A stretch of DNA of 64,000 nt from Naegleria gruberi (taxonomy: Eukaryota), in the NCBI GenBank assembly GCA_000004985.1, contig GG738856.1; one strand, written 5' to 3'. This document shows, piece after piece, positions 1 to 55,500 of this stretch. The position numbers were made by a program, and so were the translations under genes. Position 1 is the stretch's first letter, and each line of letters starts with the position of its first letter. The notes below the pieces were generated by a model, which was given only the letters and a program-made list of their open reading frames with translations, was not told the origin of the DNA and searched no databases.

Positions 1-2065
1 CTTCCAGTATGCAATCCAATCCTACATCTAAACAAGGGTTTTCCTTCTAAATCCCATTTTTCTCTCAATCTTCTCATAGCGGTTTGGCATTTGATAGCTG
101 CTCGACAAGCTGGAAGAGCTGTATTCATCATTGCTGAAGGTGCTCCCCACAAGGCCATTACCGAATCACCTAAAAGAATATAAGAGTTAATTATTTAACA
201 CACTACTTACCAATATACTTATCGAGAGTTCCTTGCTCTTTAACAATTTCTTCAGTCATGACATGAAAATATTCACTGACATGGGTGATTAACAATTGAG
301 GAGGAAGCTCTTCACTCCATGTTGTAAAGTTCTCCACATCTGAAAATAGAATGGTAATATTATCCAACATTGCTCCACCAAGTTTCATTTCAATTCCCTT
401 TTCGACCATTTCAACAATCAAGTGTTTTGGAACAAATCTCATAAATGATCTCAATGTTGTTTTCATCTTATCAAAAGCTTCACCAAGTTCAATAATTTCT
501 CTAATTCTAGTTTTTAAAGGTAAACTTCTATTTACCTCCAATCGAGAAATAGCCTTACTTTCATTGGAAAAGTAACCAAGAGGTCGAGAAACCTTCACTG
601 AAATATAGTAAGCTATAACAATACTAACAATCACGAAAATAACACTAACCACCACATTGAGGCCAGACATTAATAATAAATTTCCAATAAAGTCTGTCTC
701 TGGTGCTGAGATGAATACCAACCATTCAACATTGAACCCCTCTGAGGATGAAACAACATCAAAGCTCATTAAATTAACAGCTCCATAATGAAAACGATTC
801 AAGGACTTTCTACCAGCATAGACCTTCTCTGTGGTAGATGGAATAATGTTAACGATAATATGTCGTAGCATTTCATTTGGAATTTCTTCAGCTTCAGGAA
901 TACTTAATGAACCATCACTATTCTGAATGACCAATGTTTTTAAATCCTTGTAGGCAATAACTCTCTTCCTGTATGTTCCATCTCCATTCTTATTCAGCTC
1001 AATAATACCCAAAATTCCATTCGTAGAAAATTTAAATGATTGTACAAATTCCACGAGTTGCTTGATAACAACAGTAGTGCTGACAACACCAATATATTTT
1101 GAACTATTAAAGGGAGAGTAAATGGATTCCTGATATGAAACATAAACCTGTTCTTCCACATAATCAGCAACTTGAAGTGCTATTGGTGTTATTGCCTTTT
1201 CATAAATGTGAGATAATTTGTAATATTCGTCATTTCTTGGATCGTAAACTGATGGATAATCCTCTTTTTTTGCAATTGCAATAAATGTTCCATTTCTAGT
1301 CAATTGATACGTATCTAGATAGGTAGTATTCGAAGAGGGATTAAACACAAAGTAGAGCTTTTGTCGTTTTTCATAATACTGTCGATACCAAGGTAAATTA
1401 GTATCACTGGAATAATCTGAAGAGTCCACTGAATTGACATATAGATAATCTCCATTAGGAGGTGTAAAATCCATCAAAAAGACCAACAATTTATGTTGGG
1501 AGTGTGTCCTTGCCAATATTTTGAAAATTGTTTGATAATTTTCAGAACTGTAAAACAAATCATCACTTGTTTCCTTCATATAGTAATCATCAAATACTTG
1601 CTGACGTTGAGCAGCTGCCAATATAATACACGTATCCAAATAATTCGAAACATAGGTATTTGCCTTCTCTACTGCACTTGTAACAACGAGATTTTCAATC
1701 TGATTGGCAGTAATTAATGAGAAGGTAATTGAAATAATGGTCAATAAGAGAATTGGCGACAAAATCAATGTACACATAGCCCCCAGCAGTGAGAATTTAA
1801 AACTAATATAGAGAGTTTGCTGTTGGAGTCCATAAACACTGGTGGAAGCTTCCGTATCAGCATCAAACATTTCATTGCCGACTATAACTTGTCCAAATGA
1901 TGAAGGAGGCAATGAAACATTATTACTATTATTGGTGTTATTGGTGTTATTAATGTTATAAAGTGAATATTGCGAAAATCTTCCTTCTTCTGGAGCAGAA
2001 TTTTGTTGTTGGAAATGTTTCCTAGCTAGCTCGGGTTGTATTCTATTGCCTTTGCCAGTCATCAA
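1..2065 (-). CDS. ACG-like sensor adenylyl cyclase (class III cyclase, partial at window edge). Minus-strand exons 211..2062 and 1..169; intron 170..210, continues beyond position 1.
   Basis: Topology is TM, ~380-aa extracellular sensor domain, TM, HAMP-like linker, then cyclase. Class III motifs ILFSDVENFT and (across a 41-nt GTAAGT..TTTTAG intron) YIG|DSVMALWGAPS ... RCRIGLHTG. The real ATG is at 2062; the ORF-track start 2065 is a TTG. Resembles Dictyostelium ACG architecture (established knowledge). Confidence 0.7.
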
Positions 2066-7844: not shown

Positions 7845-8271
7845 TTTTAATAATTGAATGTAAATTTGATGATGAATGTGGATGATTGGTTCTTCAATAA
7901 AAAAATGTCTCACAACAGAACAGGCAAATTTGATGATGGAGAATAATTTTATTAATGTATTATTATATAATTAATATGAAAGTTTAAAATATATTAGCTG
8001 TTTTTCGGAATAATGTTTGGTGGCCAAGTAATGGCTTGATATGGTGCAAATTGTGCAACTGTAGTGGTTAAGCTTGCTCACTTACAAATCCTGTAAATTC
8101 TGATGGCGCCAAATCATCGTCCATGATTTCTTGTTTGAAAACACAAAAGAATTTGCCTTGATCAAAACGAGTTCATGCTTGCGAGGAATTCTTCAGCGAG
8201 CAAAAATCATATGCAACACAAGAATTCATCAACAAAAAAAATCAAACAACAACAATTGTCCTATTTTCACA

Positions 8272-11200
8272 ATGTTGAATAATAATAGAACATTTAAACC
8301 ACCAATAATTGATAATAATGTAACTCTTGGTTTGGGTCCTGACAGAATGGGTGTTTTATTCACGGATATGTTGACAGCCATTAGAATTCCTGCCAATCAT
8401 TGGTTATTAGCTTTGATCAGTGGTGGTAGTGGTGCTGATGATCAACAAGTGAGAGTAAAGCTTGTGCATGAAACGTTCCGATATGTAAATTCAGAACCAA
8501 CTCTTGAAATGAGCCAGGAAATTGACTTGCAGTTCCAAGTCATGTCACGATTGATTTGTATTCCACCAAATCAACAACAATTGATAGAATATTATAGAAA
8601 TACATTGCCATCAGCAGATTATCTTCTTTTTGAGAAGTATCACAAGTGGAATATAAGAATTGAATCGGTGGTTTACCAAAGATATGTGACTCTTGATGTT
8701 GTGTTAATTTGCCAAAATGAAAAAGAACTTCCAAAGAATTCATTGGAGTATTTAATGAAGACAGCTCCATACACGTTTAGAGATTTCCGTCTTCTTTATG
8801 AAAATTGTGAATTGTACAGTAATTTATTCAAGGTTGACTGCGAAATGTTTCAACAATTCTTTGGACGAAACTATCCTCTTGTTTGTACAGTCAAAGATGT
8901 AGATTCTAATCCAAATATTATTGGAAATAATAACATGTCCATTCAAAATTCATTCTCAAGATTTGCCAGAATATTAATGGATTTGAATTTGGGCAAATGT
9001 ATGATGATTGTGAAATTCGAAACTAAAGATGACAACATCAAAAGAAAGTGGTGCGAGAATGGGATAAGCTACGAAGGCCATTGCTACAAATTCTTTAGCA
9101 CTTCCAACTCTGGAATGAAAGGCAGCTCTGCAGTTTTTATCAACTCAACCTTACTCAACTTGGAAACTGTCAAACTTCTCGTTGGAAGCTCCTTCGACAA
9201 GGCATTACAGACAGGTGGTGTCAGAAAGGTAGCAAGCAGAATTGGTCTCAGTATTGGAACAAGCATTCAAAGTTTAGCAACTTTTGAATTTGATCAAATT
9301 TTCTGTCTTCCACAGAACATCGAAGATGAGTTTCCAATAACTGATGGTTCTGGATTAGCAAGATCTGATTTCTTTGAGGAGATTTTAGAAAAGACCTATG
9401 CCATTCCTTATTTCGAAATGGAAAAATTGGCAAAACATCCAGAAATGAAACTCTCCAGAAGGTTAGAAACTGATTACAAAAACGTGAGTGCCATTCAAGT
9501 GAGAATGCTTGGAGCCAAAGGAGTTTTACAAAAGATTCCAGATTCATTGTGGAAAGTATTGCAAGTCAAGTGGAAATTCCCAGATTCAACAAAGGTGATT
9601 TTGAGAAATTCAATGATCAAGTTTGAAACTGCTTATTACAAAAAGATTGATGTATTGAGTTATTCATCTGCTACGGGAGGGTCGATTTCAAGAGGAGTCA
9701 TGTCTTGCTTATTGGAGAGGACAGATCACAGAGAGGAAATGGAAGAAATTTTCATGAATGATCTCGACGATTATTTGAAAGAAATGGAGGACAATAGAAA
9801 TGATCCAATCTATGTCTGCAACTATCTTTTAACTGGAACAGGTAATACAAAGGAAGGATTGGCCAAACAATTGATTATGGCAGATCATCCACTCAATAAT
9901 TATTTCATTGATTCAGTAATTAGAGAAAATATCAAAACAAGACATTTGGGATTAGTCAATGATAATCTTTCTTTCAAAATCAACAGTCATTATTGTGTCA
10001 GTGCGTTGGGAGGTGTGGATGAAAGTGGGGAACTCAAAGAAGGTGAAATTCACATTAATTGTGATGCCTTTACAAATAGCCCATACTATCTGGAACTCGA
10101 TTACGTTTTAGTTTATAGAAATCCTTTGGGGTATGAGGGTGATATTCAAAAACTCAAAATTAAGAAAAATCCTCAATCAGAATTCCTCAAATCAAGACGA
10201 AACTCAATCACCTTTGCCATGTCCAAGGGCACTAGAAATCCTATTGGATTTATGCAAGGCGGTGATTTTGATGGTGACAGATACAATATCATTTTCCATC
10301 CAAAGATTGTGAAATATTTCAAGCAAGACGAAAGTTTGAATTTGGATTATAATAATAATGATATTTACGAACAATTTAAAAAGAATGAATCTATTTCCAG
10401 TCTGGAGACGATACCTGTTATGCAACCCAACACCAACCCAACCATTCAAGACATTATTGAAGAACACATTAACATGTTCACTGAAAATTCTCCAATAGGT
10501 ACTTTAAGTGGTTACACATCTAACCTTAGAGAAACAACTGATATTCCAAAGAAAAAGTTGGCTTCCAAGCTATTCGCAGATTGTATCGATTCTATTAAGG
10601 GAAGTTCATTCCCTTATGACCTGATTAACATTGTAAAATCGAAAATTCCTGAATGGGAAGAGTATTTGAATGAAAGAGTTAAGAAGAGTGAATTTTGGAA
10701 AGATGAAAATCTGTCAAATCCACAACCTAATCATTTAGTGTGTAGAATGTTTGATATGGTAGTACAATCGTTGAAGAAAATCACTGAAGATCCAATTAAT
10801 ACTCAACTCGATCCTGATTTTGAAACACCTAATCCAAAATATTTGAAATTCCATACTCAATGGAAACAAGAATTCGAAAATCTTTTCAAAGAATGGTGCA
10901 ATTATTGGACAAAGCAATTATCAGCCAATCCAGAAACAGAAAAGGACAAATCTGAAACTAAATCACACAAGAGAATTTTACTGAACAAAATTAAGGAAAT
11001 TCTTCCACTGCAAGAAGAAAAAAGTGAATCAATTGACTGGCGTGCAAAATTCAATGAAGGAACAGATGGCAATGATATGAGATGTGAAAAGGCAGCATTC
11101 TTTATGAGGTATAATCATGTGCAAAATCAGAAAGGTTTAATCAAGAGATTGCAAAGTCCTTTCGTCTATACTTGTTGCATGCTTTATTTGAATATTTACA

Positions 11201-11316
11201 AGCAATTCAAACAATTTGAAAAATTTGGAAAAATTCCACAGATTGTTTCATCCAATTACAAAGTTTCTCTCAAGAAACAACTTTCGAATATCACAAGAAC
11301 AACACCTGTAGAATAA
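8272..11316 (+). CDS. Eukaryotic-type RNA-dependent RNA polymerase (cellular RdRP/RDR domain protein)
   Basis: RDR-family signature blocks: YEGHCYKFFSTSNSGMKGSSAVFI, ARIGLSIGTSIQS, VSAIQVRMLGAKGVL, VYRNPLGYEGDIQ and the catalytic GGDFDGDRYNIIF (DbDGD). First ATG is at 8272; the frame is open from 8131. No helicase domain in this ORF. Confidence 0.75.
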   Translation: MLNNNRTFKPPIIDNNVTLGLGPDRMGVLFTDMLTAIRIPANHWLLALISGGSGADDQQVRVKLVHETFRYVNSEPTLEMSQEIDLQFQVMSRLICIPPNQQQLIEYYRNTLPSADYLLFEKYHKWNIRIESVVYQRYVTLDVVLICQNEKELPKNSLEYLMKTAPYTFRDFRLLYENCELYSNLFKVDCEMFQQFFGRNYPLVCTVKDVDSNPNIIGNNNMSIQNSFSRFARILMDLNLGKCMMIVKFETKDDNIKRKWCENGISYEGHCYKFFSTSNSGMKGSSAVFINSTLLNLETVKLLVGSSFDKALQTGGVRKVASRIGLSIGTSIQSLATFEFDQIFCLPQNIEDEFPITDGSGLARSDFFEEILEKTYAIPYFEMEKLAKHPEMKLSRRLETDYKNVSAIQVRMLGAKGVLQKIPDSLWKVLQVKWKFPDSTKVILRNSMIKFETAYYKKIDVLSYSSATGGSISRGVMSCLLERTDHREEMEEIFMNDLDDYLKEMEDNRNDPIYVCNYLLTGTGNTKEGLAKQLIMADHPLNNYFIDSVIRENIKTRHLGLVNDNLSFKINSHYCVSALGGVDESGELKEGEIHINCDAFTNSPYYLELDYVLVYRNPLGYEGDIQKLKIKKNPQSEFLKSRRNSITFAMSKGTRNPIGFMQGGDFDGDRYNIIFHPKIVKYFKQDESLNLDYNNNDIYEQFKKNESISSLETIPVMQPNTNPTIQDIIEEHINMFTENSPIGTLSGYTSNLRETTDIPKKKLASKLFADCIDSIKGSSFPYDLINIVKSKIPEWEEYLNERVKKSEFWKDENLSNPQPNHLVCRMFDMVVQSLKKITEDPINTQLDPDFETPNPKYLKFHTQWKQEFENLFKEWCNYWTKQLSANPETEKDKSETKSHKRILLNKIKEILPLQEEKSESIDWRAKFNEGTDGNDMRCEKAAFFMRYNHVQNQKGLIKRLQSPFVYTCCMLYLNIYKQFKQFEKFGKIPQIVSSNYKVSLKKQLSNITRTTPVE

Positions 11317-50030: not shown

Positions 50031-52537
50031 ATGACTAAAGTTCAACCTGTTCATGATGACAATAAGAAGGTAAGTTTCAAAACAACTTTACTAACATTCA
50101 AATCAAGCAAAATAAAAATGAAGATTTGCTTCTCTTAGATGGTGAAAAGGAAAAGCTTTGCGAAAGAAAGAAAATCATTCTCAAATCTTGCATTTCCATG
50201 AGATTAATCATTACCTTATTAATCATTCTCCTCTTGACGGCATGCTCCATCCTTACCTGGTTAGCTTCCTTCATTGGATCTATAACTGCCTTAGAAGAAT
50301 TATCCCAGAATCTTGTTTCTAGAGTTGGAGAGAAGGCCATTACTTACATTGATAGTCAACTGGATCCTGTTGTGAAACTTTCATCAAGTTTTGCAGCTGA
50401 CATTACCAACGGATCAATTTCTCTTCAACCCTCCATTAGCAACTTGTATCAAAAAGCAACAATCTACAAAGCATCAAGTGTTGGTGTTTTCTATTCACAA
50501 AGTTTGTACTCTGTTGTTTGGGCAGGTGTTTATCCGAATGAAGTATTGACCTATTCAGAGGCAATTCCTGGTCTAGTTTATTGGAAATTGGATGCTAGCA
50601 ATGGAAATGTGGTCTCAGTGTTCAAAAATACGTCTACTATTCCTTTTTCAATCACTTCTCAAGCGTTCTGGGCTGGAAGTTTTGCATTATTCAACTCAAC
50701 TGGTGCTGAAACGATTCTTGGAGCTCCGTATGTGGTAATCAATTCAGGAGTAGTGATTTATTGTTCTACAAAGATTTACGATCCAGTATTGATGGTTCAA
50801 GGAACAAAAAAAGTTATTGGAATTGCAAAAGTCAACTTGACCTTAAAGACCGTTCAGGATTTTTTACAGAAATTGTCCGTGATTGGAAATGGATACATAA
50901 TATTATCAGAAACGAATAACAATGTGATCGGAGCTTCTATTAACTCAACTGCAACTGATGGAGTGTCTAGAATTTCCTTATTTGACCTTACTGATAAAAA
51001 CGCTGGTCAACTGATGACAGATCTCAAAAATCAATATGGAGATATGAGCAAAGTTCCATCCTATAGCCAAATAACTAGTAAGGGAGTAGAATATTTCGTT
51101 TCCAAAATGGACTACCAATATCTCAATGTTCGTTGGAATCTGTATATGGTAATTTACAAATCTGATATCCAAAGAGTTACCAATATTAATACTGGTATCT
51201 CAGTTGCTGTTGCAGTTGTAGTTATTGGAGTGGGTATCATTTGTGGTGTCTTTATTGGACATATTGTAACGAAACCTCTCAGATTCCTTGAAGATCAATT
51301 TTCAAAAATCAAAACTTTTGATTTGAATTCTTGTAATTTCATTTCAAGCCAATTCAAAGAAGTTGATAGAATTTATGAGCATTTGTATGATATGGTCACT
51401 TGGCTTAATGAATTCAAGTCCTTCCTCCCAGAGAGTGTCTTTAATCAACTCAAACATATGGAACTAGTTGAAGATTCGAAACAGCACTCAGCAACTATTC
51501 GACAAAGCGTCCATGATTCACAAGCCATGATGTCCAGTGCTCAACTATCTTCCAAGCATTCTGGAAAATCAAGTAATCTCCAATCTGGCTTGGGAGGAAT
51601 TACTTCTGGAGGTTTATTTAAGGTTGGATTATCCACGAATAAGGTAACAATAGTCTGTGTTAAACTATTTGGGTTTTCTAATGAGAATTCCATGCATGAT
51701 TTATCGTTGCTATTCTCAAAGATTGCTTCCTGCCTTTCAAACTTGTCCAAAACTATGCAAGTCACTGATATGAAGATTAATTCTGTCGATGAATTTCAAT
51801 TATGTTTTACAAATGACAAGAAGAAGAAATCAGAATTTTTGGCCTTAGATGCAAGTTTGAAAATTGCAAAGGCATTGAATAATATTACTGGAAAGTCGGG
51901 TCAGAAAATTGATTATTCAATTGGTGTTTGTTCTGATTTGGCAAATATTGGAAATTTGGGAACTAGTTCACTAAGATATTTTTCAATTGTTGGTTCTGTG
52001 GTTGACAATGCCAAGATAATTGCATTATTGGGACATTCTAGTGCTAGCAGAGTTCTTGTGGATGGAAATACTCTGACTAATGTCAAGGAACAATTCGTAT
52101 ACAAACCTGTGGATCGATTGGAAATGGAACTACACTCTAAAAAGACAATTTGTTCGATTTTTGAAGTGATTAGAGAGAATGTTGTTAATCAAGATGAATG
52201 GCTATACGAATTGGATCAATCGAATAGTAATAATAAGTATTTAGAGTTACAATCTATTTTCCATCAACTATTCGAAAGTTCATCATCCATTTCATTCGAA
52301 ACTTTGAATGATTTCCGATCTAAACTTTCCCAATTCATGAATGAACATCCACAAGAAAGTTCAAACATGACCAAGACTTTAGAATTCTTAGAAATGGTTT
52401 TACAATGCTCTTCAGAATCTCAATCCCATGAAATGCTAAATAATTACAAAACTGTTTTGGAGAAACATTTGACCACTCTTTCTAAATACACCTATTCTGA
52501 TTCCGATGTTATTGTAACCAAAATTAAAATTGATTAA
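50031..52537 (+). CDS. ACG-like sensor/transmembrane protein with degenerate (probably inactive) class III cyclase-homology domain; exons 50031..50069 and 50108..52537
   Basis: Same TM-sensor-TM-HAMP-like layout as the gene at 1..2065 (ITALEELSQNLVSRVGEKAITYI vs ITANQIENLVVTSAVEKANTYV; LKTVQDFLQKLSVIGNGYIILSETNNNVIG vs IKQLVEFVQSFKFSTNGILGIIELNKNGDG; TKPLRFL vs SRPLGYF). The cyclase-like region (VTIVCVKLFGFSNE ... IDYSIGVCSDLANIGNLGTSSLRYFSIVGSVVDNAKIIA) lacks the metal-binding Asp and the GD motif. A 5' mini-exon MTKVQPVHDDNKK plus a 38-nt GTAAGT..CAAG intron is proposed; alternatively the start is internal (MRLIITLL..). Confidence 0.55.
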
Positions 52538-52597: not shown

Positions 52598-55500
52598 TTA
52601 ATTGTCCACAATCCTTTCATTCCATTCCTCAATCTTTTGTAAAATTTCATTAATGTTTGGTCTTTCCTTTGGGTCATGACTCCATGATTGTCTAATGAGT
52701 AAAGTCATTTCAAAAATGATATCCGAGTGGTAGTTCAACACTTCGTTCCTAGGTAGGAATGTTTCACACCAAGTTTGACATTCCTCTGCAGTAGAAAATG
52801 GAATGACAGGTCTCAATCCTTCTTCACAAACACTCTTATGGAATTGATATGAGCTATTAAATACATTTGGTTTGGATAATTTCAATTTTTGAAGAGCTCT
52901 TGCGTCCATACTTTGATATGGTTCTGTTATTTCGAATATTAATTGCCACATTACAATAGCCAAACTGTAAATATCAATTGATCGAGCATCATTTCTACCA
53001 ATATCTCCCGAAAAGAGTTCAGGACTGTTTCACCACCATATTATTGATATTGCACAATTATAAATCCATTCAGAAAAAAACTAACCTCATATAATTACTC
53101 GTTCCAATATGATTGGTGAGGGCTGAAATGCTGTGAGAAGACAAGACTCTTCCCAATCCAAAATCACACAACTTGGCAGTTCCATTCTTGTCTAAAAGAA
53201 TATTTGCTGGTTTCAAATCTCTGAATAATTGTGGACTAATTAAAAAATACTGAGATAGATCAAACATACCTGTGGACAATAAAGTTCGGCTCCAAACAAT
53301 GTAGATAATTGATTCCACTGGCTACATTGAGTAGAATGGACAGTTTCAGTTGAAGTGAACACTTCAATTGGTGTAATTCCAAGCTTCTAATCAAGGATTC
53401 CAAACTCTTATCCATATATTCCATTGCAATAAACCTCTTTGTGGGTGTTGATGAAATACCATAAAAATTGATAATGTTGGGATGTCTCAATTTGGACAAT
53501 AGAATGGCTTCAAATTTGAAATCATCTTCTGAAATATTAATATTATTCAAGTCAAATACTTTGACAGCAATAATAATTCCATTATATTTGGTTGAAAAGA
53601 CACTTCCCATTCCTCCTTCTCCAAGTCTCTGAGTTAAAAATGGTAAATTAGAACTAAGAATATGAATAACGTACCTTAATTGGTTTGTCCATGTGTAACA
53701 GCTCAACAGGAATAATAAAATTCTGCTCCTCCTCACTGGTTGGCTTGGATCCAGAGCCATTACTTGTATATTCCATTTCAGATTGAGATAAGAGTCTTTG
53801 ATCTAAAGTGAGGTCAGTATCATTTATCCTCTTTTGCTTTCTGTACTTCCTTGTGATGAAAATCAAGACAACTGAAATGATTGCAATGACCAATGCAAAA
53901 AATCCTATCAGTCCAAGAACAATTCCCAACATTAAATTGCTGTATTCACATCTCTCTCCACCAAAGCCTTCCTTACATTCGCACATATCATGCTTTACAC
54001 AATTTCCATTACGATTGCAAGCTTCAGATCCAGATATTCCAAAACAAATTGCAATTTGACATGAAACACCTGTATATCCAATACTACAATTACAATTATT
54101 TGGAGAAATACAAGTTCCATTAGAAGAACAAACAGACTGGCTTTCACTGGAAATCCCATTACAAATAGGATATTGACATTGAGAGCCAGAAAATCCAGCA
54201 TGGCACACACACTTGTTATATTCAACACACGTTCCATTTCCGCCATTGCACGAAGTGCTTTCATTTGAAGCAATGCCAAAGCATGTGGCTATACATTCTG
54301 TCATTGTCATACTAAGGACATACCCATCTTTGCAGTAGGGTTTCATCTTGTATATGACATTATATTTGGAATCTGAAATGTAGATTTCACCTTTTCCATC
54401 ATTGGAAAATGTAATACCTTCAGGAATTCCCAATGGAGCACTCACTGCTGACAATTCCATATTAGAATAGTATAGACCTCCATAGGATGTGTCTGTTCCA
54501 TTTCCAGCAATTGTTGTAATTATTCCATCTTTGATTCTTCTAATTCTACCATTGTTAGAATCTGAGAAAATGATATCCTCGTATGGAGGAATGAGCTTTA
54601 AAAATGTTGGACTGTTAAGTTGGGCGTTTTTAGCAGGTAGTCCATCTCCACTAAATCCCTTAATACCTGTTCCAGCCAATGTTGAAATTGTTCCATTTTT
54701 GTAAACTATTCTAATTCGGTGATTGTTTCGGTCAGAAAATATGATGTCCCCTGTGATTTTTGAATAAGCAATACCAGATGGGTAGGCCAAAGATGTTTGT
54801 AATGAATTAATATCATCTGCATAGAATCCATATCCACCATTTCCAGCGATTGTGTGCACAATTCCATTTCTAATCATCCTAATCATGTTATTCGTTACAT
54901 CAGTGAAATAAATGTCATTATTTGGTGCGATGGTCAATCCAAGACAATTTCCAATAGCATTTTCAGAAGGACCTAAATCTCCAACTCCTCCAGCAAGTAT
55001 TTCTATTGTCTTTTTCATAGTATAGACTCGAATTTTATCATTTCTAGTATCGGCCACTAGTACCATCTTCTCCTCTAAGGAATTTGCTACTGCATGAACA
55101 GACATAGGCCCATTAATTTTGGCAGTAAGTGCTGAATCGCCATCTCCCTCAAATCCAGGAAATCCTGTCTGGCTAACAACTGTTCTAATGTTGAAATCAG
55201 TTGTTGAAATGGCCCTAATCTTATTGTTAAATGTATCAGCTTCAAGAAATGTTAATTATTGAATGGATAGAAAAACAGAACTTACCAACATAAATGTCTG
55301 AATACCCATAACTGACACTGTGAGGATAAAAGAGCTGACTTCTGATAGCTGGACCTTCATCACCACTACTTCCATCAATTCCTGTTCCTGCAAGTGTTTT
55401 TACTGTTACATCTGTAATCACTCTAATTCTATGATTATTTGTATCCTTTTAGTAACTTGTTAATGTTTCCAATATGTGATAAAACTTACAGCAACAATTA

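What the first reader, a model, noticed from the sequence alone, without database searches (positions are those of the whole stretch)
1..2065. ACG-like sensor adenylyl cyclase with a pseudo-cyclase paralogue 48 kb away
The gene at 1..2065 has a TM / ~380-aa extracellular sensor / TM / HAMP-like / class III cyclase layout with intact catalytic motifs (FSDVENFT; GDSVMALWGAP). It resembles the osmosensing germination cyclase ACG of Dictyostelium (established knowledge). The gene at 50031..52537 shares the same sensor layout and clear sequence similarity in the sensor and juxtamembrane regions. Its cyclase-homology domain has lost the metal-binding Asp (CVKLFGFS instead of FSD..FT) and the GD motif. 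Class III cyclases act as dimers, so a degenerate paralogue could be a regulatory or heterodimeric partner, a receptor that has lost enzymatic output, or a decaying duplicate.
Basis: partly seen in the sequence, partly recalled or inferred. Interest (0 to 1): 0.6.

Follow-up and report, generated by a model that had tools for sequence, protein, structure and literature searches.

The report
Sensor cyclase plus dead-cyclase receptor
Two Naegleria gruberi membrane receptors share one bacterial-type plan (double-Cache sensor, HAMP, class III cyclase domain): one looks like a working adenylyl cyclase, and the other belongs to a conserved family whose cyclase domain has lost its catalytic residues, so it probably signals without making cAMP.

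Summary
The window is Naegleria gruberi. Gene 1 lies on the minus strand (exons 2062..211 and 169..1, 41-nt intron) and is cut off by the window edge. It is a TM / dCache_1 / TM / HAMP / class IIIb cyclase with both metal-binding Asp and the adenine-specifying Lys intact. Its closest relatives outside Heterolobosea are ~700-aa bacterial dCache-HAMP cyclases, colinear from end to end. It is not Dictyostelium ACG, which has a CHASE sensor and occurs only in dictyostelids.

Gene 2 (50031/50198..52537, plus strand) has the same layout. Pairwise BLAST between the two is weak (E=0.016), but profile-profile comparison is decisive (hhalign prob 99.9, E=3e-31; sensor alone E=8e-9). Its C-terminal domain has the cyclase fold (Foldseek E~1e-12, TM 0.7-0.8). 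The first metal Asp is replaced by Lys, and the substrate Lys, phosphate Arg, and transition-state Asn and Arg are not conserved. Only an invariant Glu might stand in for the second Asp.

Gene 2 belongs to a family restricted to Naegleria and Willaertia. In a syntenic N. fowleri / N. lovaniensis orthologue pair, the dead cyclase domain has dN/dS = 0.14. This is a maintained pseudoenzyme receptor, not a decaying copy. The 48-kb proximity to gene 1 looks coincidental.

The parts
1..2062 (-). Gene 1: dCache-HAMP class IIIb adenylyl cyclase. Exon 1 is 2062..211, the intron is 210..170, and exon 2 is 169..1. The 3' end is truncated by the window edge.
   Evidence: The exon junction restores TLDKYIGDSVMALWGAP, matching orthologues.
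2033..2044 (-). Gene 1 N-terminal RIQP, an instance of the [KR][VI]xP motif shared by heterolobosean members of both families.
1712..1768 (-). Gene 1 TM1 (aa 99-117)
   Evidence: Kyte-Doolittle scan
656..1711 (-). Gene 1 extracellular sensor (aa 118-469), dCache_1 type
   Evidence: Pfam dCache_1 E=0.003 for gene 1 itself. 13 of 15 aligned relatives match dCache_1, best 3.5e-25. An exhaustive search with this region found 1234 relatives.
599..655 (-). Gene 1 TM2 (aa 470-488)
383..598 (-). Gene 1 HAMP plus the helix leading into the cyclase domain (aa 489-560, includes FVPKHL)
   Evidence: Pfam HAMP E=0.03. Alignment with bacterial HAMP-cyclases.
1..382 (-). Gene 1 cyclase domain, N-terminal ~60% (aa 561-673). 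D575 in FSDVENFT, K615 and D619 in KYIGD, R667 in RIGLHTG.
   Evidence: PF00211 E=9e-10, profile positions 6-109 of 183. Residue positions.
50031..50069 (+). Gene 2 candidate first exon, MTKVQPVHDDNKK (contains KVQP)
   Evidence: The N-terminus is conserved in relatives. It is omitted from the public 779-aa model P0001.
50198..52537 (+). Gene 2 main ORF (779 aa from Met 50198, stop at 52535-52537), 100% identical to an N. gruberi 'predicted protein'
50204..50260 (+). Gene 2 TM1 (aa 3-21)
50261..51202 (+). Gene 2 extracellular dCache-type sensor (aa 22-335)
   Evidence: AlphaFold pLDDT 87.4. The Foldseek top 50 hits are all dCache ligand-binding domains, E~1e-9. hhalign against the gene 1 sensor family: prob 95.8, E=8e-9.
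51203..51259 (+). Gene 2 TM2 (aa 336-354)
51260..51457 (+). Gene 2 HAMP plus linker helix (aa 355-420, includes WLNEFKSFLPESVFNQL). This is the most conserved segment of the family.
   Evidence: 65% mean pairwise identity. hhalign prob 97.2. dN/dS 0.10 in orthologues.
51458..51607 (+). Gene 2 Ser-rich, poorly conserved linker (aa 421-470) inserted between the linker helix and the cyclase-like domain
   Evidence: 16% identity and variable length. dN/dS 0.52.
51608..52183 (+). Gene 2 pseudo-cyclase domain (aa 471-662). K489 occupies the first metal-Asp position. D531/E532 sit at the beta2-beta3 hairpin tip. S574 replaces the phosphate-binding Arg. In 'VVDNAKII', D604 aligns to the catalytic Asn and I608 to the catalytic Arg.
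52184..52534 (+). Gene 2 C-terminal helical tail (aa 663-779)
   Evidence: Four helices in the model. Homology to the gene 1 family tail is not significant (prob 33).

Best explanation
Both genes descend from one receptor design: an N-terminal cytoplasmic stretch, TM1, an extracellular double-Cache (dCache_1) ligand-binding domain, TM2, HAMP, a linker helix, a class III cyclase-homology domain (CHD) and a helical tail.

Gene 1 is a working example. As in the bacterial homologues it matches end to end, a homodimer binds an unknown small ligand outside the cell. The change passes through TM2, HAMP and the linker helix to the CHD dimer, which makes cAMP from ATP. Both metal Asp and the adenine-specifying Lys are present. 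Thr, Asn and Arg are seen in the N. lovaniensis orthologue but lie beyond the window edge here.

Gene 2 belongs to a separate, heterolobosean-restricted family that kept the sensor, TM2 and especially the HAMP/linker helix. It acquired a flexible Ser-rich spacer, and its CHD cannot perform two-metal catalysis because Lys replaces the first Asp and no substrate Lys or catalytic Arg/Asn/Arg remains. Its most likely role is a ligand-binding receptor whose dead CHD, still under purifying selection, serves as a dimeric structural or interaction module rather than an enzyme.

Shown: architecture, folds, homology, residue losses, selection.
Inferred: ligand gating, dimerisation, catalytic activity of gene 1, non-enzymatic output of gene 2.
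For: - Organism and identity.
- Gene 1 domains and motifs.
- Gene 1 relatives: full-length orthologues exist in N. lovaniensis (P0022, 48% identity), N. fowleri (P0210) and Willaertia magna (P0060). Bacterial/metagenomic dCache-HAMP cyclases are colinear with it, down to the C-terminal 'ERC..PP..WDG...K' tail. Among the 15 aligned proteins, 13 match dCache_1 and 14 match PF00211.
- Homology between gene 2 and gene 1 families: hhalign prob 99.9, E=3e-31; domain by domain.
- Gene 2 CHD homology.
- Gene 2 CHD fold: pLDDT 78, pTM 0.79. The Foldseek top 50 hits are all class III cyclases, target-normalised TM 0.7-0.82.
- Gene 2 sensor fold: dCache.
- Residue table across 9 family members versus 3 canonical cyclases: Asp1 becomes K/H/R/E, Lys becomes E/D, phosphate Arg becomes S/C/A, Thr becomes S/F, Asn is variable, Arg becomes K/I/N/T.
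- Constraint: CHD identity is 48% against 16% for the linker. dN/dS for the CHD is 0.14, sensor 0.075, HAMP 0.10 and linker 0.52 in a syntenic N. fowleri / N. lovaniensis pair.
Against: - There are no expression, localisation or enzymatic data for either gene.
- Gene 1 is incomplete in the window and absent from the protein collections searched, so the second half of its active site is inferred from orthologues.
- The status of the second metal site in gene 2 is ambiguous. MAFFT and hhalign delete 'IGDA' and align E532 to the substrate Lys. HMMER and the model's secondary structure place the D531-E532 pair at the hairpin tip where GD normally sits. E532 is nearly invariant.
- The alignment used for the CHD model contained three true cyclases, which could bias the fold. 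The family-only profile still found only cyclases in PDB.
- The dN/dS was measured on relatives of gene 2 (42-46% identical), not on gene 2 itself.
- No partner or output for the dead domain is known.
Confidence: 0.62

Rival explanations
1. Gene 2-type proteins are ligand-controlled negative regulators. Their dead CHD pairs with the CHD of an active receptor cyclase (possibly gene 1-type) and forms a dimer with no complete active site, lowering cAMP output.
For: - Class III active sites form across the dimer interface (established knowledge).
- Gene 2 lacks both half-sets of catalytic residues, so any mixed dimer would be dead.
- The flexible spacer could let the CHD reach other subunits.
- In Leishmania, the receptor-cyclase paralogue rac-B1 negatively regulates rac-A (PMC4413820).
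- Both families have the same taxonomic range, Naegleria plus Willaertia.
Against: - The two families are only ~13% identical through the sensor, TM, HAMP and linker helix that normally zip the dimer. Full-length heterodimers therefore seem unlikely.
- No interaction data exist.
- The genes are neither adjacent nor co-oriented.
Confidence: 0.2
2. Gene 2 is still an enzyme with an unconventional active site, for example one using the invariant Glu at the hairpin tip, or with a different substrate or product.
For: - E532 is nearly invariant and D531 is D/E across the family.
- The domain is under purifying selection.
- Some class III cyclases tolerate non-canonical substrate-specifying residues (established knowledge).
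Against: - The first metal Asp is replaced by a basic residue in 8 of 9 members tabulated (Glu in the ninth).
- The phosphate-binding Arg, substrate Lys and transition-state Asn/Arg are all absent in gene 2.
- Loss of either metal Asp abolishes activity in the class III cyclases tested (established knowledge).
Confidence: 0.06
3. Gene 2 is a decaying duplicate of a cyclase gene.
For: - Catalytic residues are lost.
- The public model has no Pfam domain.
- The first-exon splice is out of frame with the canonical sites.
Against: - The 779-aa ORF is uninterrupted.
- At least 11 relatives exist in four species.
- The same substitutions are shared family-wide.
- CHD dN/dS is 0.14 in orthologues.
Confidence: 0.02
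4. The two genes form a functional pair because they lie 48 kb apart.
For: They are the only two CHD-bearing genes in the window.
Against: - About ten unrelated genes lie between them: Cu-ATPase, RdRP, DOCK, ECM29, aminotransferase, RhoGAP, SUMO-E1, UCH and others.
- Naegleria carries at least 81 cyclases (PMC9928731). In a ~41-Mb genome (size from memory) a second cyclase-like gene within 64 kb is expected in roughly one window in seven.
- The N. fowleri and N. lovaniensis family members have different neighbours.
Confidence: 0.05

Closest known systems
Bacterial dCache_1-HAMP-class IIIb adenylyl cyclases (~700 aa; e.g. Legionella israelensis protein P0023, metagenomic P0024, P0063-P0074)
   Same: Gene 1 aligns with them from TM1 through the sensor, TM2, HAMP, 'RSFxKYVP' linker, CHD (FSDI..FT, DKYIGD) and, in its orthologues, the C-terminal 'ERC..PP..WDG...K' tail. 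Gene 2's family matches the same plan at profile level.
   Different: - The heterolobosean proteins add an ~85-aa N-terminal cytoplasmic extension with a [KR][VI]xP motif. Gene 1 also has a spliceosomal intron.
- Gene 1 has DPRNDEYY where the bacterial proteins have DPRxRPWY.
- Legionella is no closer to gene 1 than other bacteria are (23-27% identity for all), so no specific donor is indicated.
- Gene 2's CHD is catalytically degenerate and is preceded by an inserted spacer.
Dictyostelium adenylyl cyclase G (ACG)
   Same: The topology is the same: TM, extracellular sensor, TM, cytosolic class III cyclase. The sensors belong to the same broad Cache-like superfamily (one relative of gene 1 also matches CHASE weakly, E=5e-4).
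   Different: ACG's sensor is a CHASE domain and ACG is found only in dictyostelids (PMC4399386). Gene 1's sensor is dCache_1, and gene 1 has no CHASE hit at E<=1. Osmosensing cannot be inferred.
Leishmania receptor adenylate cyclases RAC-A / RAC-B
   Same: This is a discobid protist with receptor-cyclase paralogues, one of which negatively regulates the other (PMC4413820). It is a precedent for a regulatory, non-producing paralogue.
   Different: Trypanosomatid RACs have a single TM and a periplasmic-binding-protein-type ectodomain (PMC7719234), not dCache-HAMP. They sit in a tandem array, whereas gene 1 and gene 2 are dispersed and very divergent.
Pseudo-symmetric degenerate sites of heterodimeric class III cyclases (mammalian tmAC C1/C2, soluble AC C1/C2, soluble GC alpha/beta)
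   Same: These are CHDs that lack part of the catalytic set yet are retained as obligatory dimer partners. The best PDB sequence match of the gene 2 family profile is the soluble AC (ADCY10), with its best-scoring stretch in the second catalytic domain.
   Different: In those enzymes each domain keeps one complementary half-set, so one site stays active (established knowledge). Gene 2 lacks both half-sets.
Degenerate GGDEF/EAL domains in bacterial receptors (functional analogy only)
   Same: A nucleotide-cyclase-type output domain is kept under selection after losing catalysis and is re-used as a binding or regulatory module (established knowledge).
   Different: They belong to a different domain family. 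There is no evidence that gene 2 binds nucleotides.

Membership tests
Class III nucleotidyl cyclase (PF00211), gene 1 | Significant match to the catalytic-domain profile | tested here: met
   E=9e-10, 38.8 bits against a cut-off of 21.9. Profile positions 6-109 of 183; the rest lies beyond the window.
Class III nucleotidyl cyclase (PF00211), gene 1 | Two metal-binding Asp and the substrate-specifying Lys | tested here: met
   D575 (FSDVENFT), D619 and K615 (KYIGD)
Class III nucleotidyl cyclase (PF00211), gene 1 | Second specificity residue and transition-state Asn/Arg | not testable with these tools
   They lie beyond window position 1. All three are present in orthologue P0022 (YTAIGDNVNLASR). 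Attempts to fetch the flanking DNA failed.
Class III nucleotidyl cyclase, gene 2 (as a homologous domain) | Cyclase-homology fold and sequence homology | tested here: met
   - Pfam 20.3 bits, just under the cut-off.
- Family profile against PDB: only cyclases, best 3e-6.
- Class IIIb HMM: E=2.4e-9.
- Foldseek: E~1e-12, TM 0.7-0.82.
Class III nucleotidyl cyclase, gene 2 (as an enzyme) | Canonical catalytic residues (Asp, Asp, Lys, Arg, Thr/Asp, Asn, Arg) | tested here: not met
   Observed residues are K, (deleted or E), E, S, S, D, I in gene 2, and the positions are similarly degenerate in all 9 members. Only the second Asp position is ambiguous.
ACG (Dictyostelium adenylyl cyclase G) | CHASE extracellular domain | tested here: not met
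   No PF03924 hit at E<=1 for gene 1 or gene 2. The sensor is dCache_1. ACG is defined by CHASE (PMC4399386).
ACG (Dictyostelium adenylyl cyclase G) | TM-sensor-TM-cyclase topology | tested here: met
ACG (Dictyostelium adenylyl cyclase G) | Activation by high osmolarity | not testable with these tools
   Requires an enzyme assay.
dCache_1 extracellular sensors | Profile match | tested here: inconclusive
   Gene 1 (E=0.003) and gene 2 (E=0.003) are each below the 45-bit cut-off. However, 13 of 15 gene 1 relatives match (best 3.5e-25) and 7 of 12 gene 2 relatives match weakly.
dCache_1 extracellular sensors | Long N-terminal helix followed by two PAS-like modules (fold) | tested here: met
   Gene 2 model: pLDDT 87.4, helix 2-47 followed by two alpha/beta modules. 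The top 50 PDB hits are all dCache domains such as PctC, PctA, CtaA, Tlp3 and Mlp24. Gene 1's sensor was not modelled; its assignment rests on sequence.
HAMP domain | Profile match directly after TM2 | tested here: inconclusive
   Gene 1 E=0.03. One relative matches at 1e-4. The segment is homologous between the two families (prob 97.2).

The most novel reading that the evidence does not exclude
Heteroloboseans maintain a dedicated family of dCache-HAMP 'pseudo-cyclase' receptors. They sense extracellular ligands but signal without making cyclic nucleotide. Two routes are possible: the dead cyclase dimer acts as a scaffold, or it poisons active receptor cyclases in a ligand-dependent way. Both the active and the dead receptors would be routed to the flagellar or surface membrane by a conserved N-terminal [KR]VxP signal of the polycystin-2 type.
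Probability: 0.2. Interest if true: 0.7.

Novelty: new variant of a known kind. Interest (0 to 1): 0.45.

Why it matters
- Naegleria's very large cyclase repertoire is usually counted as enzymes. This shows that at least one conserved sub-family (four N. gruberi members, plus members in N. fowleri, N. lovaniensis and Willaertia) consists of receptors with a dead output domain under purifying selection.
- It gives a clean natural system for asking what a cyclase-homology domain does when it is not a cyclase, and how HAMP and linker-helix signals are read out without catalysis.
- Gene 1 documents a bacterial-type dCache-HAMP cyclase working plan in a eukaryote, with an intron and a eukaryote-specific N-terminal extension.
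- The shared N-terminal [KR]VxP motif is a testable candidate trafficking signal. This is relevant because a related species, N. fowleri, is a pathogen.

Tried and rejected
- The first homologue search with full-length gene 1 returned only short cyclase-domain hits, apparently swamped by the Asn-rich N-terminus. Repeating it without that region found the orthologues.
- I tried to obtain DNA upstream of window position 1 to complete gene 1. Exact look-ups of the neighbouring Cu-ATPase ORF and of P0001 were both not on record.
- A Legionella-specific gene transfer was considered because L. israelensis was the best named bacterial hit. I rejected it as a specific link because all bacterial homologues are equally distant, 23-27% identity.
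- Homology of the C-terminal tails of the two families is not significant (prob 33).
- Synteny between gene 2 and the N. fowleri / N. lovaniensis members: none.
- Literature searches for described pseudo-cyclase receptors, or for these Naegleria proteins, found nothing specific. The Saran & Schaap ACG paper is not held.
- I tried to settle the Asp2 position by alignment.
- No tRNA genes are in the window.
Full report
**What is there**

The window is from Naegleria gruberi. The ORF at 50198..52534 is 100% identical to an N. gruberi 'predicted protein' of 779 aa, P0001. G+C is ~35% throughout.

Gene 1 lies on the minus strand.
- Its ATG is at 2062. Exon 1 runs to 211.
- A 41-nt GTAAGT...TTTTAG intron spans 210..170. 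Exon 2 (169..1) runs off the window.
- The junction restores ...TLDKYIG|DSVMALWGAP..., exactly as in orthologues.
- 673 residues are visible.

Hydropathy gives two TM helices in gene 1 (aa 99-117 and 470-488) flanking a 352-aa extracellular region. Pfam finds the class III cyclase domain (PF00211, E=9e-10, profile positions 6-109 of 183, truncated by the window edge). It also finds weak dCache_1 and HAMP matches.

Gene 2 has TM helices at aa 3-21 and 336-354, a 314-aa extracellular region and a 425-aa cytosolic part.

**Gene 1 is a bacterial-type dCache-HAMP adenylyl cyclase, not an ACG relative**

After I removed the Asn-rich N-terminus, a homologue search found three kinds of relative:
- a full-length N. 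lovaniensis orthologue (P0022, 840 aa, 48% identity, 100% coverage);
- dCache_1 + cyclase proteins from Legionella israelensis and a metagenome (26-30% identity over 71-87% of the query);
- many cyclase-domain-only hits.

An exhaustive search with the sensor-to-HAMP region alone gave 1234 relatives at E<=1e-3. The best are from Willaertia magna (P0060) and a cluster holding an N. fowleri protein (P0210). The rest are mostly ~700-aa proteins.

The alignment of 15 of these is colinear from TM1 to the last residues. That includes the 'RSFxKYVP' helix, FSDI..FT, DKYIGD, RIG..TG, YT..GD.VN.ASR and a C-terminal 'ERC..PP..WDG...K' tail, which the heterolobosean orthologues keep. Of the 15 proteins, 13 match dCache_1 (best 3.5e-25), 9 match MCP-like_PDC_1 and 14 match PF00211.

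In gene 1 the two metal Asp (D575, D619), the adenine-specifying Lys (K615) and the phosphate Arg (R667) are present. The Thr, Asn and Arg that complete a class IIIb site lie beyond the window edge but are present in P0022.

[quoted passage not shown] Gene 1 has no CHASE hit at E<=1. The resemblance to ACG is therefore one of topology and sensor superfamily, not family membership, and osmosensing cannot be inferred.

Gene 1 itself is missing from the protein collections searched, so it appears to be unannotated in the reference proteome.

**Gene 2 has the same plan**

Pairwise BLASTP between the two proteins is weak: the best HSP has E=0.016, plus a colinear 22%-identity stretch. Gene 2 has eleven relatives, all in Naegleria (gruberi, fowleri, lovaniensis), Willaertia magna or unnamed environmental assemblies.

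Profile-profile comparison of this family with the gene 1 family gives prob 99.9, E=3.1e-31 over 650 aligned columns, from TM1 into the tail. Domain by domain:

| Region | hhalign probability | E-value |
|---|---|---|
| Sensor (270 columns) | 95.8 | 8e-9 |
| HAMP + linker helix | 97.2 | 3e-11 |
| C-terminal tail | 33 | not significant |

An AlphaFold model of the gene 2 sensor (pLDDT 87.4, pTM 0.82) shows a long N-terminal helix followed by two alpha/beta modules. Its 50 best PDB matches are all dCache ligand-binding domains of chemoreceptors and histidine kinases, including PctC, PctA, CtaA, Tlp3 and Mlp24, at E~1e-9.

**Gene 2's C-terminal domain is a cyclase-homology domain**

- nothing at E<=1 on the full-length protein;
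- E=4.5e-4 and 20.3 bits on the isolated domain, just under the curated 21.9 bits and covering profile positions 6-174 of 183;
- 7 of 10 family members match.

Stronger tests agree.
- A profile of the family's domain alone, searched against all PDB sequences, returned 30 hits. All are class III cyclases; the best is soluble AC at 3e-6.
- A class IIIb HMM built from gene 1's relatives hits gene 2 at E=2.4e-9 over positions 3-191 of 191. It hits nothing else in the six-frame translation of the window apart from gene 1.
- An AlphaFold model of aa 466-779 (pLDDT 78.3, pTM 0.79) has the beta-alpha-beta-beta-alpha-beta order of a CHD. Its top 50 Foldseek hits are all class III cyclase domains, including Rv1625c, RhGC, CyaB and CyaC, at E~1e-12 with target-normalised TM 0.65-0.82.
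- One caveat: that model's alignment included three true cyclases.

**The catalytic residues are gone**

The table compares nine family members with three canonical cyclases, using the MAFFT alignment.

| Catalytic position | Canonical | Gene 2 | Gene 2 family |
|---|---|---|---|
| First metal Asp | D | K489 | K/H/R (E in one member) |
| Substrate Lys | K | E | E/D |
| Phosphate Arg | R | S | S/C/A |
| Second specificity residue | T | S | S/F |
| Transition-state Asn | N | D | variable |
| Transition-state Arg | R | I | K/I/N/T |

The second metal Asp is the one open point.
- MAFFT and hhalign align SVDEF----QLCF to TLDKYIGDAVMAF, which deletes 'IGDA'.
- HMMER aligns VDEFQLCF to iGDavmaf, which places E532 on the Asp.
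- The model's secondary structure (beta2 DMKINS, turn V-D, beta3 EFQLCFT) puts D531/E532 at the hairpin tip where GD normally sits.
- E532 is nearly invariant in the family.

Even if that Glu is equivalent to the Asp, a Lys at the first metal position, together with the loss of the Arg, Lys, Asn and Arg, is incompatible with the two-metal mechanism of class III cyclases (established knowledge). Because neither the Asp/Asp half-set nor the Lys/Thr/Asn/Arg half-set survives, a heterodimer with an active subunit could not form a complete site. Gene 2 cannot play the C1 or C2 role of mammalian cyclases. It could only be inert or inhibitory.

**It is maintained, not decaying**

Mean pairwise identity within the gene 2 family, by region:

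| Region | Identity |
|---|---|
| Sensor | 0.43 |
| TM2 | 0.56 |
| HAMP + linker helix | 0.65 |
| Ser-rich spacer | 0.16 |
| Pseudo-CHD | 0.48 |
| Tail | 0.34 |

For a direct test I fetched the genes for the N. fowleri (P0003) and N. lovaniensis (P0004) members. They are syntenic: both are followed by an RCC1/WD40 gene and an M20 peptidase. I mapped their exons and computed Nei-Gojobori dN/dS:

| Region | dN/dS |
|---|---|
| Sensor | 0.075 |
| TM2 + HAMP + linker helix | 0.10 |
| Spacer | 0.52 |
| Pseudo-CHD (189 codons, dS 0.83) | 0.14 |
| Tail | 0.28 |

The dead domain is under clear purifying selection. These are relatives of gene 2, not gene 2 itself. Gene 2 has an intact 779-codon ORF.

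**How it most likely works**

Gene 1 (inferred from its bacterial homologues and from class III cyclase structural biology): a homodimer binds a ligand at the dCache domain. The signal passes through TM2, HAMP and the linker helix and adjusts the CHD dimer that makes cAMP. The ligand is unknown. Gene 1 has DPRNDEYY where the bacterial proteins have DPRxRPWY.

Gene 2: the sensor, TM2 and especially the HAMP/linker helix are conserved, so ligand-driven conformational signalling is probably retained. A fast-evolving 50-90-residue Ser-rich spacer now separates the helix from the CHD. The CHD cannot catalyse.

I favour a receptor whose pseudo-CHD dimer is a structural or interaction module (about 0.45 within the overall picture). 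The main rival is a ligand-dependent inhibitor that forms dead dimers with active cyclases (about 0.2). Leishmania rac-B1, which negatively regulates rac-A, is a precedent for that rival (PMC4413820). Residual unconventional catalysis (~0.06) and pseudogene decay (~0.02) are unlikely.

**Linkage**

The genes between the two are unrelated: Cu-ATPase, RNA-dependent RNA polymerase, DOCK, ECM29, a class III aminotransferase, RhoGAP-PH, SUMO-E1, a ubiquitin hydrolase, and an EGF/NHL protein just beyond gene 2. The genus has at least 81 cyclases (PMC9928731), and the two proteins are ~13% identical. The 48-kb spacing is best read as coincidence.

**Novelty**

Gene 1 is a new, apparently unannotated member of a known kind. 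Gene 2's family is a new variant: a receptor with a class III cyclase domain that is degenerate in both half-sites yet conserved. I found no description of it in the literature searched. Some members are auto-named 'Guanylate cyclase domain-containing protein', and gene 2 itself is only a 'predicted protein' with no Pfam domain.

Interest is moderate. It is a tidy pseudoenzyme case in an organism known for cyclase expansion, with no functional data yet.

Noticed in passing
window 2033-2044 (-) and 50037-50048 (+); relatives P0003, P0005, P0007, P0008, P0010, P0012, P0022, P0060, P0061: An N-terminal [KR][VI]xP motif starts within the first 7 residues (RIQP, KVQP, KVHP, RVHP, KVVP, KVYP, KISP). 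It occurs in every heterolobosean member of BOTH families whose N-terminus is modelled. None of the 11 bacterial homologues has it at the N-terminus. Composition-based chance is ~0.5% per protein. It resembles the N-terminal RVxP ciliary-targeting motif of polycystin-2 (PMC3044124). It is a candidate flagellar or surface trafficking signal.
   Followed up: partly
window 50031-50150 (+): Gene 2's conserved first exon (MTKVQPVHDDNKK) is followed by a canonical GTAAGT donor at 50070, and a strong TCTCTTAG acceptor ends at 50138. Joining these two shifts the frame and stops after 33 codons. An in-frame product needs either the weaker donor GT at 50074 or the acceptor AG at 50148-50149. The public model starts at Met 50198 and omits the exon. 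Possible explanations are a uORF, an unusual splice or a 1-nt assembly error. RNA data are needed.
   Followed up: partly
window 1-2062 (-): Gene 1's own protein was not returned by any homologue search of the public protein collections; the best match is 48% identical, from N. lovaniensis. It seems to be unannotated in the N. gruberi reference, perhaps because it abuts a scaffold end or gap at window position 1.
   Followed up: partly
gene 1 family alignment A3 (relatives of window 1-2062): The heterolobosean gene 1 orthologues keep the bacterial C-terminal tail to the last residue ('..ERC....PP..WDG....K'), and overall colinearity is complete. This suggests a bacterial origin of the family. 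Gene 1 now carries an intron and a eukaryote-specific N-terminal extension. No phylogeny was run.
   Followed up: partly
window 51458-51607 (+): A Ser-rich, length-variable spacer lies between the conserved 'FLPExVFNQL' helix and the pseudo-cyclase domain: 16% identity in the family and dN/dS 0.52 in orthologues. In canonical cyclases this junction is a short rigid helix, so the coupling must differ here. The spacer could carry phosphorylation sites.
   Followed up: partly
protein P0006 (N. gruberi paralogue of gene 2): The public model is 1272 aa, with a GT10 fucosyltransferase domain (PF00852) fused upstream of the receptor. The receptor part begins after an internal Met followed by KITP. 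It is probably two neighbouring genes merged by the gene caller.
   Followed up: no
window 50198-52534 (+): Method note. hmmscan of the full-length gene 2 protein reports no PF00211 match even at E<=1, while the excised domain scores 20.3 bits, E=4.5e-4. Whole-protein scans can therefore miss this family, which may explain its 'no domain' annotation.
   Followed up: yes
window 8131-11316 (+) and 52598-53760 (-): Two neighbouring genes stand out. One is a cellular RNA-dependent RNA polymerase (PF05183, E=6e-49). The other is a multi-exon protein-kinase-like gene convergent with gene 2, immediately downstream (kinase motifs in the ORF translations). No link to the finding was established.
   Followed up: no
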